Origin: a virus
Lineage: Duplodnaviria; Heunggongvirae; Uroviricota; Caudoviricetes
Virus record (IMG/VR): IMGVR_UViG_2537561562_000009
Direction: 5' to 3' (one strand)
Length of the DNA: 23,224 nt
In this document: positions 3,756-9,980 of the stretch, piece after piece
How the letters are laid out: the number at the start of each line of letters is the position of its first letter
How positions within the stretch are numbered: position 1 is the first letter of the stretch
Made by a program: the position numbers and the translations under genes
Notes under the pieces: generated by a model
The model's database searches: none
Seen by the model: only the letters and a program-made list of their open reading frames with translations
What the model was told of the DNA's origin: nothing

Positions 3756-3831
3756 GGCCCTTTAGCTCAGTGGTGAGAGCGAGCGACTCATAATCGCCAG
3801 GTCGCTGGTTCAAATCCAGCAAGGGCCACCA
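3756..3831 (+). tRNA. tRNA with anticodon CAT (Met or lysidine-modified Ile2, ileZ-like)
   Basis: 76 nt; acceptor stem GGCCCTT / AAGGGCC, anticodon loop CTCATAA, T-loop GGTTCAAATCC, encoded 3' CCA. Confidence 0.85.
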
Positions 3832-3931: not shown

Positions 3932-4008
3932 GCGTTGTTAGCTCAGCCGGACAGAGCAATTGCCTTCTAAGCAATCGGTCACTGGTTCGAATCCAGTACA
4001 GCGCGCCA
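3932..4008 (+). tRNA. tRNA-Arg (anticodon TCT)
   Basis: 77 nt; acceptor stem GCGTTGT / ACAGCGC with one G-U pair, D-arm AGCTCAGCCGGACAGAGC, anticodon loop CTTCTAA, T-loop GGTTCGAATCC, discriminator G plus CCA. Confidence 0.85.
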
Positions 4009-4919: not shown

Positions 4920-5255
4920 TTATGGACTTTGTTGTTTTAGCCCATAAGGACATATTTGCAGAGTGCAACGGTTATTAAAGCATTCATTCAATACGTTATC
5001 TGTATTTGTAGGGCATTCCTGGCTGTTTTTGATTAAATTCCAGAATGTTTTATTGAATGGTACTACGTTGTAAATGGTTACAGGCAGCACTTTGTTATTG
5101 AGCATGATGCCTGTGTGAGTCAGTGTAAATATACTTTCAGGAGGTAAGAAAGCATCCGATTGATACCAGATTATTAATTTTATTTTACTCCATATGACTG
5201 AAAAAGATATTCCGCATGATGGCTGGATAACTGTATCAATCACAATCCACTTCAT
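4920..5255 (-). CDS. Hypothetical protein, minus strand, AT-rich cargo island (111 aa)
   Basis: ATG at 5255 preceded on the minus strand by AAGGAAACTAA (AGGAA about 6 nt upstream). Divergent from the downstream esterase gene across a 245-bp AT-rich intergenic region. No recognisable motifs. Confidence 0.35.
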
Positions 5256-5500: not shown

Positions 5501-7369
5501 ATGGTGAAAAGAACCATGGCATTTAAACACTATGATGTTGTCAGGGCGGCGTCGCCGTCAGATCTTGCGGAAAAGCTGACACATAAACTGAAAGAGGGCT
5601 GGCAGCCGTTTGGTAGTCCGGTGGCCATAACCCCTTATACCCTGATGCAGGCGATTGCAGCAGAAGGTGATGTGGTCGTCAGTGGTGCAACTGAGCCGGA
5701 GTGGTACTACGTCATCGTACTGGCCGGGCAGTCCAATGCCATGGCTTACGGTGAAGGGCTTCCGCTTCCGGATTCATACGATGCGCCCCATCCGCGCATT
5801 AAGCAACTGGCCCGTCGTAACACAGTGACTCCCGGTGGTGAAGTATGCGTATTTAACGACATCATTCCTGCTGACCATTGTCTGCATGATGTTCAGGATA
5901 TGAGTACGATTAACCATCCCCGGGCTGACCTGAGCAAAGGGCAGTACGGCTGTGTCGGCCAGGGCTTACATATTGCCAAAAAACTGCTTCCGTATATCCC
6001 TAATAATGCGGGGATCCTGCTGGTACCATGCTGTCGTGGTGGTTCGGCATTCACCCAGGGCACGGAGGGGACATTCAGCGAGTCCACGGGGGCCAGTCAG
6101 GATTCGGCTCGCTGGGGAGTGGGTAAGCCGTTATATCAGGATCTGCTTTTCCGCACGAAGGCAGCATTGCAGAAAAACCCGAAAAACGTTTTGCTGGCGA
6201 TATGCTGGATGCAGGGGGAATTCGATATGACGAATGCCAGTTACGCCCAGCAGCCAGCAGCATTTCTTGCAATGGTACAGCAGTTCCGTGCTGACCTTGC
6301 CGGGCTGGCAGCGCAGTGTCACGGTGGAAGTCCGGCATCAGTCCCCTGGATTTGTGGCGACACGACATACGCGTGGAAACAAGAACACGGTACGCAATAT
6401 GAAGTGGTATATGGTGCATATAAAGGTAAAGAATCCCAGCAGATTTATTTTGTTCCCTTTATGACCGATGGTAGCGGAGTTAATACACCGACAAACAACC
6501 CGTCAGAAGATCCTGATATTGCCGGGTCTGGTTATTACGGTTCGGCATCCCGAACGAACAAAAACTGGGTATCATCAAATCGCCCGACGCATTTCAGCTC
6601 ATGGGCGCGTCGTGGCATTATTCCCGATCGTATGGCAACTGCTATTCTGAACGTAGCCGGGCGCACCTCAGCCTTCATCAGTGGTAAGGCACCGGAAATC
6701 AAACCCTCGCCCGGCGGCGACACGCCATCGGGTCCGTCTGCAGATACGTCCGTTCGCACAATCTCCCTGCTGCCGACAGCCGGAGAGGCTGCTGCGCAGG
6801 GCTGGACCATTAAGGACGGCGGAATTCAGTTGTCGGGTGGTGTATTTAAGATCGCCAAGCAGAGCAATAAAGCCTGGTCCCTGACGCGCCCGGTGGATGA
6901 CGCAGTCTCCCTGCTGACACGGGGTGGCAGACTGAGCTGTAAGTTTCGACTGTCAGGCGCACTGACCAACAATCAGTTCGGTCTGGGAATTTATCTGTAT
7001 ACCGATGTAGCGTTACCTGACGTCGTGGCGATGACCGGGACTGGTAACCCGTTCCTGATGTCGTTCTTCACCCAGACCACAGACGGCAAACTGAATCTGA
7101 TGCATCACAAGAAAGCAGGAAACACAAAGTTGGGCGAGTTCGGGAATTACAGTAACGACTGGCAGACGCTGGAGCTGGTGTTCACCGCCGGCAGTGCCAC
7201 GGTTACTCCGAAACTGAATGGAGTGGCTGGCCCGGCATTCCAGGCCATAAAAGACAGTCTGGCAGTGGGACTAAATGCACTGACGCTGACGGATATTACC
7301 AAAAATGCAACGTATGGCGTTGAGATAGAAAGTCTGGTGCTGGAGATAAATGCACCGGCATCATCATAA
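5501..7369 (+). CDS. nanS-p: Prophage sialate O-acetylesterase-like protein (NanS-p-like; DUF1737 N-domain plus SGNH hydrolase plus C-terminal domain)
   Basis: 622 aa; SGNH block-I-like motif YYVIVLAGQSNAMAYGEG about 20 residues after the N-terminal domain; position between the tRNA/cargo region and the holin matches NanS-p of Stx and related lambdoid prophages. True start may be the second ATG at 5516 (MAFKHYD...). Confidence 0.7.
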   Translation: MVKRTMAFKHYDVVRAASPSDLAEKLTHKLKEGWQPFGSPVAITPYTLMQAIAAEGDVVVSGATEPEWYYVIVLAGQSNAMAYGEGLPLPDSYDAPHPRIKQLARRNTVTPGGEVCVFNDIIPADHCLHDVQDMSTINHPRADLSKGQYGCVGQGLHIAKKLLPYIPNNAGILLVPCCRGGSAFTQGTEGTFSESTGASQDSARWGVGKPLYQDLLFRTKAALQKNPKNVLLAICWMQGEFDMTNASYAQQPAAFLAMVQQFRADLAGLAAQCHGGSPASVPWICGDTTYAWKQEHGTQYEVVYGAYKGKESQQIYFVPFMTDGSGVNTPTNNPSEDPDIAGSGYYGSASRTNKNWVSSNRPTHFSSWARRGIIPDRMATAILNVAGRTSAFISGKAPEIKPSPGGDTPSGPSADTSVRTISLLPTAGEAAAQGWTIKDGGIQLSGGVFKIAKQSNKAWSLTRPVDDAVSLLTRGGRLSCKFRLSGALTNNQFGLGIYLYTDVALPDVVAMTGTGNPFLMSFFTQTTDGKLNLMHHKKAGNTKLGEFGNYSNDWQTLELVFTAGSATVTPKLNGVAGPAFQAIKDSLAVGLNALTLTDITKNATYGVEIESLVLEINAPASS

Positions 7370-7519
7370 AAAGTGAGCCAGTCAAATGGAAGGTATCGTT
7401 AAACTCACCGGTAGTGTCAGTGGGTCGTCTGAGATGCCTGCATGAGTTATCAGAGCCATCAGTACTTAACTGGTGGCTTTTTTTATTGTTGTCAGCTTCC
7501 GGATAACGGGAGACGGGGT

Positions 7520-7735
7520 ATGTACCAGATGGAAAAAATCACAACAGGTGTGTCATACACCACGTCAGCGGTGGGAACGGGCTACTGGTTCCTGCAGTTG
7601 CTGGACAGGGTTTCCCCGTCTCAGTGGGCGGCAATAGGCGTGCTGGGGAGTCTGCTGTTTGGGCTGCTGACATATCTGACTAACCTGTATTTCAAAATCA
7701 GAGAGGACCGTCGTAAGGCTGCACGGGGAGAGTAA
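7520..7735 (+). CDS. S: Class II holin / pinholin (phage 21 S-like), dual-start MYQM
   Basis: 71 aa from ATG 7520 ([13 protein letters not shown]...), two hydrophobic segments, charged C-terminus [13 protein letters not shown]; closely resembles the S21 pinholin as remembered. The track ORF starts further upstream at 7442 without such support. Confidence 0.85.
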
Positions 7736-7739
7736 TTCA

Positions 7740-8084
7740 ATGACTCAAAACTATGAACTGATTGTGAAAGGGATCCGCAATTTTGAGAATAAAGTTACGG
7801 TAACTTTAGCGTTACGGGACAAAAAACGCTTTGACGGTGAAATTTTTGACCTGGACATCTCGCTGGACCGTGTTGAAGGTGCCGCGCTGGAGTTTTATGA
7901 GGCAGCAGCCAGAAGGAGCATCAGACAGGTCTTCCTGGATGTTGCTGCCGGGTTATGTGAAGGGGATGAGCAGTCGCCGGAAAAGCGCCCCGTAATTTTA
8001 GAGGCGCAGGATGTGTTGATAACCTACAGAGGAAAACTACCGGGAATAATTACTGGTTCTCTGAAGAGTCCGCCGAAATGGTAA
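7740..8084 (+). CDS. Hypothetical protein between holin and endolysin (possibly YdfR/DUF1327-like)
   Basis: 114 aa; ATG 5 nt after the holin stop with GGGGAGAG upstream. A small gene at this position exists in some E. coli lambdoid prophage lysis cassettes (from memory, not verified). Confidence 0.5.
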   Translation: MTQNYELIVKGIRNFENKVTVTLALRDKKRFDGEIFDLDISLDRVEGAALEFYEAAARRSIRQVFLDVAAGLCEGDEQSPEKRPVILEAQDVLITYRGKLPGIITGSLKSPPKW

Positions 8085-8322
8085 TTTTACCAGCATATTT
8101 TTCATCCAGTAATACAGCAAGCCGCCTGAAAGAGTCTTGTTGTTCCTGAGACCATTTGGGATTGCATGATTCAAACTGGATTGATGCCAGCGTTGATTGC
8201 ATCTGTTCCCTTGGAATTGAGAATGCCAGATATGAGAAGGCGACGGTAAGGGTATTCACGTCTTCCCGAAGCCTGGAAATGCTGTCGAGCAACTCCTGTA
8301 GAGAAATGGTGTTATTGTCCAT
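8050..8322 (-). CDS. Hypothetical protein, minus strand, embedded in lysis cassette (90 aa)
   Basis: Strong Shine-Dalgarno on the minus strand (GAGGA, 6-nt spacer, ATG at 8322); 3' end overlaps the 3' end of the 7740-8084 gene by 35 bp (convergent); possible promoter TTGCCT...TACAAT upstream on the minus strand. Confidence 0.45.
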   Translation of the reverse strand: MDNNTISLQELLDSISRLREDVNTLTVAFSYLAFSIPREQMQSTLASIQFESCNPKWSQEQQDSFRRLAVLLDEKYAGKITISADSSENQ

Positions 8323-8427
8323 AAATAATCCTCATGATTGTATTGACCTGTTAGCAGCCTGAGGCAACAGGCTGGAACTGATAAACATATCCAGGGCTCA
8401 GAAACCGATAAATCCTGATAAATATCC

Positions 8428-8961
8428 ATGAACGCAAAAATCAGATACGGCCTGTCGGCTGCCGTTCTGGCGCTGATTGCCGCTGGTGCGCCTGCGCCTG
8501 ACATTCTCGACCAGTTTCTGGATGAAAAGGAAGGCAATCACACCACGGCATACCGTGATGGTGCAGGTATCTGGACCATCTGCCGTGGTGCCATCATGGT
8601 GGATGGCAAACCTGTCGTTCCGGGCATGAAGTTGTCGAAGGAAAAATGCGACCAGGTTAACGCCATTGAGCGTGATAAAGCGCTGGCGTGGGTGGAGAAA
8701 AACATCAGAGTGCCACTGACCGAACCCCAGAAAGCGGGGATCGCGTCATTCTGTCCGTACAACATTGGTCCCGGTAAGTGTTTCCCGTCGACGTTTTATA
8801 AACGAATTAATGCAGGTGATCGCAGGGGAGCGTGTGAGGCGATTCGCTGGTGGATTAAGGACGGTGGCAGAGACTGCCGTATTCGTTCAAACAACTGCTA
8901 CGGTCAGGTATCCCGTCGTGACCAGGAGAGCGCGCTGGCGTGCTGGGGTATCGACAGATAA
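8428..8961 (+). CDS. R: SAR endolysin (T4-lysozyme-fold muramidase with N-terminal signal-anchor-release domain)
   Basis: 177 aa; weakly hydrophobic Gly/Ala-rich N-terminus YGLSAAVLALIAAGAPAP; catalytic E-x8-D-x5-T signature in EGNHTTAYRDGAGIWTICRG; pairs with the upstream pinholin. Confidence 0.85.
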   Translation: MNAKIRYGLSAAVLALIAAGAPAPDILDQFLDEKEGNHTTAYRDGAGIWTICRGAIMVDGKPVVPGMKLSKEKCDQVNAIERDKALAWVEKNIRVPLTEPQKAGIASFCPYNIGPGKCFPSTFYKRINAGDRRGACEAIRWWIKDGGRDCRIRSNNCYGQVSRRDQESALACWGIDR

Positions 8962-9047
8962 GCAGAATATTTTGCTGAAAAATGCGGTTTGCTTACACGG
9001 ACGGATAACACGAAATCCTGCGAACTGACAAAAACTAAGTGAATAAA

Positions 9048-9090
9048 AGTAAAAACCCCGTTTGTTGGCTGCAAGCGGGGTTTTGTGTTT
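9048..9090. terminator. Intrinsic terminator, potentially bidirectional
   Basis: Stem CCCCGTTTG / CAAGCGGGG (9056-9064 / 9072-9080, one G-U pair), 7-nt loop, T-run TTTTGTGTTT downstream and A-run upstream. Confidence 0.6.
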
Positions 9091-9120
9091 CCTGACTCTG
9101 GAAAAGTCAAAGGAGAAAGT

Positions 9121-9258
9121 GTGTTTGATTTTAGCAAACTGATTCGGGAGATTCGAGTGATGGCTGAAAAATTATCCACCTGGAAGTTCATTCTTATCTG
9201 GCTGGTGTTTGTGATTATGGCCTCCGGTTATTTCATCGGTCAGATACGCTGGTGGTGA
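9121..9258 (+). CDS. Small single-pass membrane protein (45 aa from GTG 9121, or 32 aa from ATG 9160)
   Basis: Not in the supplied track (under 60 aa). AGGAGA at 9111-9116 precedes GTG 9121, and GGGAG at 9146-9150 precedes ATG 9160. Translation MFDFSKLIREIRVMAEKLSTWKFILIWLVFVIMASGYFIGQIRWW has one hydrophobic helix. Stop TGA at 9256-9258 is 1 nt before the Rz start. Confidence 0.45.
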   Translation: MFDFSKLIREIRVMAEKLSTWKFILIWLVFVIMASGYFIGQIRWW

Positions 9259-9259
9259 A

Positions 9260-9727
9260 ATGAACCGCGTACTGTGCGTGGTCATCATTGCCCTGCTGGT
9301 GGCCTGTGGTGCGCTTAGTCTGGGGCTGAATCATTACCGTGATAACGCCATAACCTACAAAGAGCAGCGCGATAAAAAAGTCAGTGAGCTGGAGCAGGCA
9401 AATGCAACCATTACTGATATGCAGCAGCGCCAGCGTGATGTTGCTGCACTTGATGCCAGATACTCGAGGGAATTAGCCGATGCGAGAGCTGAAAATGAAA
9501 CTCTGCGTGCTGATGTTGCCGCTGGTCGTAAGCGCCTGCGGATCAACGCCACCTGCCCCGGTACCGTGCGTGAAGCCCCCACCACCTCCGGCGTGGATAA
9601 TGCAACCGGCCCCCGACTGGCAGACACCGCTGAACGGGATTATTTCACTCTCAGAGAGCGGTTGATGCTGATGCAGAAGCAGCTGGAAGTGGCGCAGGAA
9701 TATATCCGCACTCAGTGCCTGAAATAA
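9260..9727 (+). CDS. Rz: Rz i-spanin
   Basis: 155 aa; N-terminal transmembrane segment VLCVVIIALLVACGALSL, coiled-coil-like periplasmic domain; follows the endolysin. Confidence 0.85.
   Translation: MNRVLCVVIIALLVACGALSLGLNHYRDNAITYKEQRDKKVSELEQANATITDMQQRQRDVAALDARYSRELADARAENETLRADVAAGRKRLRINATCPGTVREAPTTSGVDNATGPRLADTAERDYFTLRERLMLMQKQLEVAQEYIRTQCLK
9495..9665 (+). CDS. Rz1: Rz1 o-spanin lipoprotein, embedded in Rz in the +1 frame
   Basis: 56 aa from ATG 9495; lipobox VSAC in MKLCVLMLPLVVSACGS, proline-rich mature part; lies entirely within Rz. Confidence 0.8.
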   Translation: MKLCVLMLPLVVSACGSTPPAPVPCVKPPPPPAWIMQPAPDWQTPLNGIISLSESG

Positions 9728-9980
9728 GTTTTGCTGATGCGCGGTATTGTCGCCGTATCCCCGCATTAACAGAGACCGCAGCCCGACCGGGAGACTCCTC
9801 TGCGCGAGTGTGCGGGGATAATCAAAAACGATACACACCGGGGTTTACCGCGTTAACGGAGCGCGGCGTTGTCCCCTCATAGTCGCCTGTCCGGTGCGAT
9901 GGTGGAAGAAATCGGACTACATTGAAAATGATAACCATTATCATTTTTGCGGGTCCTTTCCGGCGATCCGGGCCGTTACG

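What the first reader, a model, noticed from the sequence alone, without database searches (positions are those of the whole stretch)
7740..8427. Convergent, 3'-overlapping ORF pair inserted between holin and endolysin
About 690 bp separate the pinholin from the SAR endolysin. This gap holds a + strand 114-aa ORF (7740-8084) and a minus-strand 90-aa ORF (8050-8322) that has a strong GAGGA Shine-Dalgarno and a candidate promoter (TTGCCT...TACAAT). Their 3' ends overlap by 35 bp. An antisense gene inside a lysis cassette is unusual. It could encode a moron, an anti-lysis or lysis-timing factor, or an antisense regulator of the late transcript.
Basis: partly seen in the sequence, partly recalled or inferred. 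Interest (0 to 1): 0.6.

Follow-up and report, generated by a model that had tools for sequence, protein, structure and literature searches.

The report
Prophage cargo gene beside ydfR
The gap between the lysis genes of this E. coli prophage holds a common late gene (ydfR family) and, on the opposite strand, a small, real but uncharacterised cargo gene found in about a fifth of E. coli genomes; nothing found here links it to lysis control.

Summary
A 114-aa + ORF (7740-8084) and a 90-aa minus ORF (8050-8322) overlap by 35 bp between an S21-type holin and a lysozyme. The + ORF is an ordinary YdfR/DUF1327 gene (Pfam E 7e-43), the usual occupant of this slot in lambdoid prophages. The minus ORF ("m90"; PHROG 2411, UniProt name Ybl58) is a genuine protein gene: dN/dS is 0.11-0.42, and its frame is the only one open in all 12 homologs examined. 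It encodes a soluble, acidic, four-helix protein with no membrane segment.

It lies on a ~280-bp insert that is absent from the otherwise near-identical phage 640R1. The insert carries its own SD and a conserved -10-like hexamer. The cassette occurs in 1133 of 5426 complete E. coli genomes, including the Rac remnant of BL21. Relatives exist without ydfR or any lysis cassette: on an E. coli genomic island, and as a chromosomal gene between dinI and bssS in Serratia.

The same junction in YdfR (after GSLKxPP) holds unrelated convergent ORFs in other phages, so it is a cargo hot spot. The overlap is mainly a junction by-product. No evidence supports an antisense or lysis-timing role. Function is unknown. 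RefSeq already annotates the gene as hypothetical. Interest is low to moderate.

The parts
7520..7735 (+). S21-type class II (pin)holin, 71 codons with a dual-start motif MYQMEK. The 97-aa ORF from 7442 is an upstream extension that PGAP does not use.
   Evidence: PF04971 E 2e-32 and PHROG 9876/20 'holin'. PGAP places the 216-nt CDS at the equivalent position in a 100% identical genome.
7740..8084 (+). ydfR-family late gene (DUF1327), 114 aa. It has a b-b-b-a core (residues 1-73), a linker CEGDEQSPEKRP and a C-terminal module VILEAQDVLITYRGKLPGIITGSLKSPP, followed by 'KW' and the stop at the insertion junction.
   Evidence: PF07041 145 bits against a cut-off of 25; PHROG 406. It starts 4 nt after the holin stop, with GGAGAG upstream. 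AF2 model. Family alignment. K-12 YdfR residues 1-72 bind the RNase E N-terminal domain (PMC13232886).
8050..8322 (-). m90: 90-aa cargo gene (PHROG 2411 / 'Ybl58'). It encodes a soluble acidic four-helix protein. Residues 1-82 form the conserved core; the last ~8-11 codons run antisense through the ydfR 3' end.
   Evidence: PHROG 2411 E 9e-59. Homologs down to 24-40% identity. dN/dS 0.11-0.42. Only frame open in 12 of 12 homologs. AF2 gives four helices, pLDDT 68. pI 4.5, no TM segment.
8050..8084 (.). 35-bp convergent 3' overlap. It encodes the YdfR tail TGSLKSPPKW and the predicted-disordered m90 tail (ADSSENQ).
   Evidence: m90 residues 79-90 have pLDDT below 50. The tail differs in the EC15-island, Citrobacter-type and Serratia homologs, though the XH992 island copy keeps a similar tail. 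GSLKxPP is nearly invariant in YdfR.
8083..8362 (-). Inserted cargo (moron-like) cassette: m90 core, SD and -10/-35-like elements. It is absent from phage vB_EcoS-640R1, whose ydfR and R flanks are otherwise near-identical.
   Evidence: Pairwise alignment shows a ~274-bp gap, with homology resuming near 8363. DNA similarity to the island copies spans 8083-8333 and 8105-8351. GC is 0.41-0.48 inside against 0.51-0.59 in the flanks.
8329..8367 (-). Candidate expression signals of m90: -35-like TTGCCT (8367-8362), a 19-nt spacer, -10-like TACAAT (8342-8337), SD GAGGA (8333-8329).
   Evidence: Read. The -10/SD/ATG block is conserved in BL21 Rac and in the iha-island copy, where it reads TATAAT. Not called by the consensus scan. 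No transcript data.
8428..8961 (+). Lysozyme (R), probably a SAR endolysin, 177 aa.
   Evidence: PF00959 E 3e-24, PHROG 7 'endolysin'. The N-terminus reads GLSAAVLALIAAGAPA and the motif E-X8-D-X5-T is present, both read.
9260..9727 (+). Rz spanin, with an embedded Rz1-like ORF at 9480-9665. It completes the lysis cassette.
   Evidence: PF03245 E 8e-49. ORF list.

Best explanation
The interval holds two unrelated genes that sit next to each other because of an insertion.

(1) ydfR (7740-8084) is a normal member of the Q-dependent late operon, translated directly after the holin. It encodes a small cytoplasmic protein. By homology to K-12 YdfR it probably binds the catalytic half of RNase E and perhaps RNA, and it is an accessory factor rather than a lysis protein.

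(2) m90 (8050-8322, minus strand) is a free-standing cargo gene, a 'moron'. It sits on a ~280-bp cassette inserted at a recombination hot spot immediately after the YdfR codons GSLKxPP. The cassette brings its own ribosome-binding site and a -10-like promoter element. Because it points against the late operon, it is most likely expressed from the repressed prophage and shut down by head-on late transcription after induction, as with bor in lambda and the IraM-like gene 3 kb upstream in this window.

Its product is a soluble, acidic four-helix protein. The family also exists as a chromosomal gene in Serratia (between dinI and bssS) and Sodalis, and on an E. coli genomic island. It therefore most likely acts on host physiology by binding a host protein, not on the holin or endolysin. 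The 35-bp overlap is mainly a consequence of the junction: the m90 frame runs on into the antisense of the ydfR 3' end, and ydfR ends at a stop supplied at the cassette edge.

Shown: gene identities, selection on m90, the presence/absence insert, and the distribution. Inferred: promoter use, expression in the lysogen, and the protein's activity and target, which are unknown.
For: - **ydfR identity:** DUF1327 at 145 bits and PHROG 406; annotated as a YdfR family protein in RefSeq.
- **YdfR function lead:** K-12 YdfR residues 1-72 bind the RNase E N-terminal domain in two-hybrid and pull-down assays and co-purify RNA (PMC13232886).
- **m90 is coding:** full-length PHROG 2411 match. Length is preserved at 83-97 aa across homologs from 98% down to 24% identity. 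dN/dS is 0.11-0.42 with saturated dS. It is the only frame open in all 12 homologs.
- **Insert:** the window has ~280 bp that phage 640R1 lacks between near-identical ydfR and R flanks. DNA homology to the island copies is limited to 8083-8351. GC is lower inside the insert.
- **Signals:** SD and the -10-like hexamer are conserved among prophage alleles and in the iha-island copy.
- **Independence from YdfR and lysis:** L087 has holin, a 176-bp gap, m90 and lysozyme, without the DUF1327 core. There is a 63%-identical copy beside an autotransporter gene on an IS-rich island. S. proteamaculans and S. rubidaea carry a homolog in pyrC-dinI-[homolog]-bssS-solA, which matches PHROG 2411 at E 2e-8. 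Sodalis ligni has a chromosomal copy.
- **Hot spot:** after GSLKxPP, other phages carry no insert (116-aa YdfR), or extended YdfR (176/183/211 aa) with an unrelated 86-aa convergent ORF (PHROG 2572), or a 268-aa YdfR with an unrelated 104-aa convergent ORF (PHROG 1853). A 104-aa YdfR that diverges earlier, near residue 77, also lacks a minus ORF.
- **Not a membrane protein:** maximum Kyte-Doolittle 19-residue score 0.75, pI 4.5.
- **Precedent in this window:** the IraM-like gene at 4920-5255 is also on the minus strand inside the late region.
Against: - No transcript, TSS or proteomic evidence was found. The literature searches found nothing for the m90 gene or its protein; the only functional report recovered concerns K-12 YdfR.
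- The proposed promoter is weak: a 19-nt spacer, not called by the scan, and a -10 so close to the SD that the leader would be only about 8-12 nt.
- No intrinsic terminator follows m90. This fails one classical moron feature and means a minus transcript could extend antisense into ydfR and S.
- In every one of 80 IMG/VR loci, m90 sits in exactly the same place next to ydfR. Even the Citrobacter-type homologs are convergent with an ORF ending ITGSLxxP. The iha-island copy keeps a decayed ydfR 3' remnant. A functional link to the YdfR C-terminal module is therefore not excluded.
- The XH992 island copy keeps a tail similar to the prophage m90 tail, so the tail is not purely a junction artefact.
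Confidence: 0.6

Rival explanations
1. Antisense or transcriptional-interference regulator of lysis. Transcription from the m90 promoter runs head-on into the late operon and antisense through ydfR and S. This would damp leaky holin expression in the lysogen or delay lysis after induction. The protein product would be secondary.
For: The genes are convergent, and no intrinsic terminator lies between the m90 stop and the holin gene; the first weak minus-strand hairpin is at 7561-7547. The position is strictly conserved in 80 of 80 viral loci. Two other unrelated convergent ORFs occupy the same slot in other phages, as expected if orientation and position mattered more than protein sequence.
Against: The ORF itself is under purifying selection and conserved to about 24-40% identity, with synonymous sites saturated; an RNA-only function would not preserve this. 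Relatives occur away from any lysis gene. Many otherwise identical cassettes work without it. There is no stable or conserved RNA structure (z = -0.96) and no Rfam hit. Q-modified late transcription is expected to overwhelm a weak convergent promoter; that last point is inference.
Confidence: 0.12
2. YdfR and the convergent small protein form a functional pair. The small protein would be a cognate partner, inhibitor or immunity factor for the variable C-terminal part of YdfR, or for YdfR-like proteins of superinfecting phages. The alternative cassettes (114 aa + m90, 176-211 aa + m86, 268 aa + m104) would then be polymorphic two-gene modules.
For: YdfR C-terminal variants co-vary with the type of convergent ORF. 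Adjacency is constant in 80 of 80 loci. Citrobacter-type m90 homologs are again convergent with, and overlap, an ORF ending in the same ITGSLxxP module although it lacks DUF1327. All three small proteins carry net negative charge (-5.5, -5.5 and -2.1).
Against: The window's YdfR has no extension beyond the junction, only 'KW', yet it has m90. The same 27-residue module occurs in the 116-aa YdfR without any partner. L087 keeps m90 with only a 23-codon remnant of ydfR. Serratia, Sodalis and EC15-island homologs have no YdfR nearby. In L093, m86 has lost its start codon while the 176-aa YdfR is intact. Convergent orientation is atypical for toxin/immunity or effector/inhibitor pairs.
Confidence: 0.12
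3. The minus ORF is a spurious or decaying reading frame, and any real gene in 8085-8362 is on the + strand: the 68-aa TTG ORF at 8156-8362, which points the same way as S and R.
For: The + strand frame (rc1) has a dN/dS as low as the m90 frame (0.18-0.31) and is open in several homologs. Frameshifted m90 variants exist (P0062 'ybl58' and the 94-aa forms).
Against: That frame shares wobble positions with m90, which explains the equal dN/dS. Its longest open run ranges from 32 to 90 codons, and it is interrupted in L085, L100, the Serratia copies and the Sodalis copy, whereas the m90 frame is intact in 12 of 12. It has a TTG start and no SD. The m90 ATG and SD are conserved even in Citrobacter-type copies whose upstream DNA is unrelated. 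The m90 profile retrieves about 92-aa proteins across Yersiniaceae.
Confidence: 0.03

Closest known systems
YdfR (E. coli K-12 Qin prophage, P76160; Pfam DUF1327)
   Same: The + ORF matches the family model across residues 1-111 of 114 and lies in the same position between the class II holin (essQ/essD type) and the lysozyme (rrrQ type). The N-terminal ~72 residues that bind the RNase E N-terminal domain in K-12 are the conserved core here.
   Different: It is 114 aa rather than 103 aa and has a different C-terminal tail. RNase E or RNA binding has not been shown for this variant. The physiological role is unknown even in K-12.
Lambda bor and lom, and the prophage IraM-like gene: morons in the late region of lambdoid phages
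   Same: m90 is a small gene that is present or absent between conserved late-operon neighbours. Like bor and the IraM-like gene at 4920-5255, it points against late transcription. It carries its own ribosome-binding site and a promoter-like element, has lower GC than its flanks, and has relatives outside phages.
   Different: There is no sequence or fold relationship to Bor, Lom or IraM. m90 has no signal peptide or lipobox. No terminator was detected. Expression in the lysogen and any host phenotype are untested.
PHROG 2411 / UniProt 'Ybl58' (uncharacterised)
   Same: The minus ORF is a full-length member (E 9e-59), and the exact sequence is on at least 1000 contigs.
   Different: Nothing is known about this family. 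This work adds its chromosomal relatives in Serratia and Sodalis and its insert boundaries.
Antiholins and lysis-timing regulators (S107 and S21-71 dual-start antiholins, T4 RI, P1 LydB)
   Same: Only the location inside a lysis cassette.
   Different: The dual-start antiholins and T4 RI are membrane-anchored or periplasmic and act on the holin. m90 has no hydrophobic segment or signal sequence, is transcribed in the opposite direction, and occurs without any holin nearby.

Membership tests
YdfR / DUF1327 (PF07041) | Score above the Pfam gathering threshold over most of the model | tested here: met
   145.2 bits against a cut-off of 25; residues 1-111 match model positions 1-91 of 93.
YdfR / DUF1327 (PF07041) | Located between a class II holin and a lysozyme in a lambdoid late operon | tested here: met
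   Order is holin 7520-7735, ydfR 7740-8084, lysozyme 8428-8961. The same order is seen in L001, L002, L003, L004, L092-L098.
YdfR / DUF1327 (PF07041) | Binds the RNase E N-terminal domain (reported for K-12 YdfR, PMC13232886) | not testable with these tools
PHROG 2411 / Ybl58 family | Full-length profile match and a conserved core motif (L-x-x-V-N-x-L-x-x-A-F-S-Y-L-A-F ... F-E-S) | tested here: met
   E 9e-59 over positions 1-90 of 90. Y31, L32 and E51 are invariant in the deep alignment.
Moron (Juhala/Hendrix sense) | Present or absent between otherwise homologous flanking genes in related phages | tested here: met
   A ~274-283-bp segment is absent from vB_EcoS-640R1, whose flanks are near-identical. 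Other phages have different or no inserts at the same junction.
Moron (Juhala/Hendrix sense) | Own promoter | tested here: inconclusive
   A -10-like TACAAT/TATAAT is conserved in prophage and island copies. However, the spacer is 19 nt, the -35 is poor, the site is not called by the scan, and there are no TSS data.
Moron (Juhala/Hendrix sense) | Own terminator | tested here: not met
   No terminator-like site on the minus strand between 8050 and 7561. The fold of 7950-8070 is no better than shuffles (z = -0.96).
Moron (Juhala/Hendrix sense) | Base composition different from the neighbours | tested here: met
   GC is 0.41-0.48 across 8075-8375, against 0.51-0.57 in ydfR and 0.51-0.59 in R. The difference is modest.
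Moron (Juhala/Hendrix sense) | Expressed from the repressed prophage | not testable with these tools
   Literature searches found no expression data for the m90 gene.
Pinholin / SAR-endolysin lysis cassette (phage 21 type) | S21-family holin with a dual start, and a lysozyme with an N-terminal signal-anchor-release segment | tested here: met
   PF04971 E 2e-32; MYQMEK dual start. The lysozyme N-terminus reads GLSAAVLALIAAGAPA and E-X8-D-X5-T is present, both read from the sequence. SAR behaviour itself is inferred.
Antiholin / lysis-timing protein | Membrane or periplasmic localisation (TM segment or signal peptide) and co-orientation with the holin | tested here: not met
   Maximum KD19 score 0.75, pI 4.5, opposite strand.
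cis-antisense RNA regulator or known sRNA | Conserved RNA structure or an Rfam family; conservation independent of coding | tested here: not met
   No Rfam hit in 7000-9800 apart from a sub-threshold rimP match elsewhere. No excess folding. Conservation follows the codon pattern of m90.
Known anti-phage defence system (PADLOC) | Match to a defence-protein model | tested here: not met
   No hit for YdfR, m90, m86 or m104 at E up to 0.1.

The most novel reading that the evidence does not exclude
The codon stretch GSLKxPP at the end of YdfR may be a dedicated exchange point. Lambdoid phages would swap alternative modules there: a C-terminal YdfR extension plus a convergent small acidic protein (PHROG 2411, 2572 or 1853). 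The small proteins, expressed from the prophage, would be cognate partners or immunity factors that neutralise YdfR-type RNase E-targeting proteins of incoming related phages, or tune the prophage's own YdfR. That would be a polymorphic inter-phage competition system hidden inside the lysis cassette.
Probability: 0.06. Interest if true: 0.65.

Novelty: new member of a known kind. Interest (0 to 1): 0.3.

Why it matters
About one in five sequenced E. coli strains, including ST131-type clinical isolates and the laboratory strain BL21, carries this small gene, and nobody knows what it does. The analysis turns an apparent oddity of the lysis cassette into a defined and testable object. It is a ~280-bp cargo cassette with a selected 90-aa soluble protein, and the family has a fixed chromosomal home in Serratia next to the small stress and biofilm regulators dinI and bssS. 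It also shows that the S-ydfR-R junction is a recurrent insertion point for unrelated small genes, which is useful for prophage annotation and for finding new lysogen-expressed factors. It does not change the current understanding of holin-endolysin lysis control.

Tried and rejected
- **Lysis or antiholin role for m90:** rejected. There is no TM segment or signal peptide, and homologs occur outside lysis cassettes.
- **RNA-level element:** no Rfam family was found, and folding is no better than shuffles.
- **Defence system:** PADLOC found nothing.
- **Homology among the three convergent ORF types (m90, m86, m104):** none by BLASTP or hhalign.
- **SOS control:** a CTG-N10-CAG box upstream of the S. 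proteamaculans homolog is not conserved in S. rubidaea, and there is none upstream of m90 in the window. The idea was dropped.
- **The + strand 68-aa ORF inside m90 as the real gene:** rejected.
- **Literature:** searches for ybl58, the WP accessions and DUF1327 found nothing relevant. The only functional paper found for YdfR is PMC13232886.
- **Distant-alignment search:** The search for related loci with the deep alignment failed because no stretch was conserved enough.

Full report
**1. Observation**

The ORFs are as described. The + ORF runs 7740-8084 (114 aa). The minus ORF runs 8050-8322 (90 aa). They overlap by 35 bp at their 3' ends.

The flanks are a P21 S-type class II holin (PF04971, E 2e-32) and a lysozyme (PF00959, E 3e-24). 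PGAP uses the 71-codon holin form at 7520-7735, which starts MYQMEK. The lysozyme has a Gly/Ala-rich N-terminus. Rz follows at 9260-9727.

The window is a lambda-like prophage. In order it carries DUF968, RusA, Q antiterminator (1261-2082), DNA methylase, two tRNAs, an IraM-like gene on the minus strand (4920-5255), a NanS-p-type esterase, then S, ydfR, m90 (minus), R, Rz, Nu1, terminase A, portal and capsid. Everything from Q onward on the + strand is late operon.

The SD GAGGA (8333-8329) is real. The proposed promoter has TTGCCT at 8367-8362 and TACAAT at 8342-8337. Its spacer is 19 nt, and the -10 ends 3 nt before the SD. The consensus scan did not call it.

**2. The + ORF**

It is a plain YdfR/DUF1327 protein (145 bits against a cut-off of 25; PHROG 406). 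It starts 4 nt after the holin stop.

The family alignment and translations of variants show its architecture:
- a conserved core (residues 1-77);
- a linker CEGDEQSPEKRP;
- a module (V/I)ILEAQxVxITYxGKLPGxITGSLKxPP.

The one functional report found (PMC13232886) shows that K-12 YdfR residues 1-72 bind the RNase E N-terminal domain in two-hybrid and pull-down assays. The tagged protein also co-purifies RNA. Overexpression changes few transcripts.

**3. The minus ORF (m90) is a real gene**

- It matches PHROG 2411 over its full length (E 9e-59), with no Pfam, NCBIfam or PADLOC hit.
- Homologs keep a length of 83-97 aa from 98% down to 24% identity.
- Nei-Gojobori dN/dS is 0.11-0.42 in the 13 of 15 pairs where it could be computed; in the other two dS was saturated.
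- The antisense frame that shares wobble positions has the same ratio, as expected. Only the m90 frame is open in all 12 homologs examined.
- AF2 predicts four helices (pLDDT 68) with a disordered tail from residue 79.
- The protein is acidic (pI 4.5) and has no hydrophobic segment.

**4. m90 sits on an insert**

Phage vB_EcoS-640R1 is near-identical through ydfR and again from about 8363 into R. Against it, the window has roughly 274-283 extra bases.

DNA similarity to two E. coli island copies spans 8083-8333 and 8105-8351. GC is 0.41-0.48 inside the insert and 0.51-0.59 in the flanks.

The left edge coincides with the ydfR stop codon. In most comparisons protein similarity within the m90 family ends at residue 82 (window ~8077). 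The last ~8-11 codons run antisense through the nearly invariant YdfR motif TGSLKSPP. The overlap is therefore mainly a junction by-product that joins two low-constraint tails. The XH992 island copy does keep a similar tail.

The -10-like hexamer, SD and ATG travel with the gene. The hexamer reads TACAAT in three prophage alleles, TAGCAT in one, and TATAAT in the iha-island copy. No terminator follows the gene.

**5. Distribution**

- The 1.1-kb arrangement is in at least 1103 of 5426 complete E. coli genomes.
- The cassette alone is in 1133. It falls into two allele groups: 532 records at 99% identity or more, and 602 records at 80-90%.
- Carriers include BL21-AI, where the Rac remnant reads essD-ydfR-m90-rrrQ-Rz-trkG.
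- Only 3 of 366 matching phage records carry it.
- RefSeq annotates the pair as 'YdfR family protein' plus 'hypothetical protein'. UniProt calls m90 'Ybl58'.
- In all 80 IMG/VR loci retrieved, the order is Rz, lysozyme, m90 (opposite strand), ydfR, holin, with a constant 106-bp spacing between lysozyme and m90.

**6. m90 does not need ydfR or a lysis cassette**

- L087 has holin, a 176-bp gap, m90 and lysozyme. Only a 23-codon remnant of the YdfR module remains.
- Strain EC15 has a 63%-identical copy next to an autotransporter gene among IS elements.
- Strain XH992 has a copy divergent from iha. It still carries a decayed ydfR 3' remnant, so it was captured from a phage.
- A profile search finds ~92-aa homologs (30-36% identity) in many Serratia species and in Sodalis, Chania, Gibbsiella, Atlantibacter and Chimaeribacter.
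- In S. proteamaculans and S. rubidaea the gene lies in the chromosomal run pyrC-dinI-[homolog]-bssS-solA, preceded by the dinI terminator and its own SD. It matches PHROG 2411 at E 2e-8.
- Sodalis ligni has a chromosomal copy with different neighbours.
- The family is small: 20 clusters at 50% identity among 1.84 billion representatives.

**7. The junction is a hot spot**

Right after GSLKxPP, different phages carry different content:

| YdfR form | What follows the junction |
|---|---|
| 116 aa | 'ESQP' and stop; no minus ORF |
| 114 aa (this window) | 'KW' and stop, then m90 |
| 176/183/211 aa | Extension TALRSEKDD..., overlapping by 53 bp an unrelated 86-aa convergent ORF (PHROG 2572) |
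| 268 aa | An unrelated 104-aa convergent ORF (PHROG 1853) |

A 104-aa YdfR form also has no minus ORF, but it diverges earlier, near residue 77, and lacks the GSLKxPP module.

The three small proteins show no similarity to one another.

Citrobacter-type m90 homologs are convergent with ORFs that lack DUF1327 but end in ITGSLxxP. A link between m90 and that module therefore cannot be fully excluded.

**8. Interpretation**

The best reading, with confidence about 0.6, is as follows. ydfR is an ordinary late-operon accessory gene, possibly RNase E- or RNA-directed. m90 is an uncharacterised moron-type cargo gene. Its own weak promoter probably expresses it in the lysogen, and late transcription probably silences it. 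It most likely acts on host physiology rather than on lysis.

Promoter use, timing of expression and the molecular target are inferences.

Rivals:
- antisense or interference control of lysis (0.12);
- a functional YdfR-small protein pair (0.12);
- a spurious ORF, or a + strand gene instead (0.03).

**9. Novelty and score**

The arrangement is common and already annotated. The + ORF is a known family. The minus ORF is a new, uncharacterised example of a known kind: a small gene on the opposite strand in the late region of a lambdoid prophage. What is new here is the insert boundaries, the chromosomal relatives of the family in Serratia, and the recognition of the GSLKxPP junction as a recurrent cargo site. 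Interest 0.3.

Noticed in passing
window 4920-5255 (-): An IraM-like anti-adaptor gene (PHROG 4407; PGAP names it 'anti-adapter protein IraM' in the 100% identical genome) lies on the minus strand between the tRNAs and the NanS-p esterase. It is a second opposite-strand cargo gene inside the late region.
   Followed up: partly
window 7452-7480 (+): A terminator-like hairpin with a T-run sits just upstream of the holin start and inside the 97-aa extended holin ORF. This suggests that the real holin start is 7520 and that a Q-overridden terminator lies between nanS-p and S.
   Followed up: no
window 8962-9259: There is a 300-bp gap between R and Rz. It holds a strong + strand terminator-like hairpin (9052-9084) and a 57-aa ORF (9085-9258, PHROG 6632, unknown function). 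A sub-threshold Rfam rimP-leader match lies on the minus strand (9028-9117, E 0.036, 29.9 bits against a gathering score of 47).
   Followed up: partly
window 3756-3831 and 3932-4008 (+): tRNA-Met (CAT) and tRNA-Arg (TCT) genes lie downstream of the DNA methylase, in the Q-to-S region. The related genome L001 has tRNA-Ile, Arg and Arg here.
   Followed up: no
L101-L105, 6001-6279 (Serratia proteamaculans, S. rubidaea): The m90 family has a chromosomal homolog at a fixed position between dinI and bssS (pyrC-dinI-X-bssS-solA), with rne a few genes upstream. E. coli K-12 has nothing at that position (from memory, not checked here).
   Followed up: partly
L092/L094 2479-2760 (-), L004 2371-2631 (-), L003 2657-2971 (-): Two other unrelated convergent small ORFs (86 aa, PHROG 2572; 104 aa, PHROG 1853) occupy the same slot downstream of extended YdfR variants. 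The 86-aa ORF overlaps ydfR by 53 bp. In L093 it has lost its ATG (ACG).
   Followed up: partly
L085 488-721 (-), L086 391-576 (-): The partner ORFs of Citrobacter-type m90 homologs lack DUF1327 but end in ...ITGSLRAPIKL / ...IIGSLITPPEL. They also contain a stretch that, by eye, resembles the coiled-coil part of the long YdfR extensions, which suggests module shuffling.
   Followed up: no
window 8156-8362 (+): A 68-aa TTG ORF lies antisense within m90 and is open in several homologs. This is explained by shared wobble positions, and the ORF is not conserved across the family.
   Followed up: yes
P0062, P0038-P0042, P0277 (E. coli): Frameshifted or truncated m90 variants (for example 'ybl58', the 94-aa forms and a 46-aa form) exist in some genomes, so the gene is decaying in part of the population.
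   Followed up: no
L087-L089 1589-2123 (-): In a related prophage, a ParE/ParD toxin-antitoxin pair sits next to the lysozyme gene, on its distal side, where Rz lies in this window. This is further evidence that the lysis region collects cargo.
   Followed up: no
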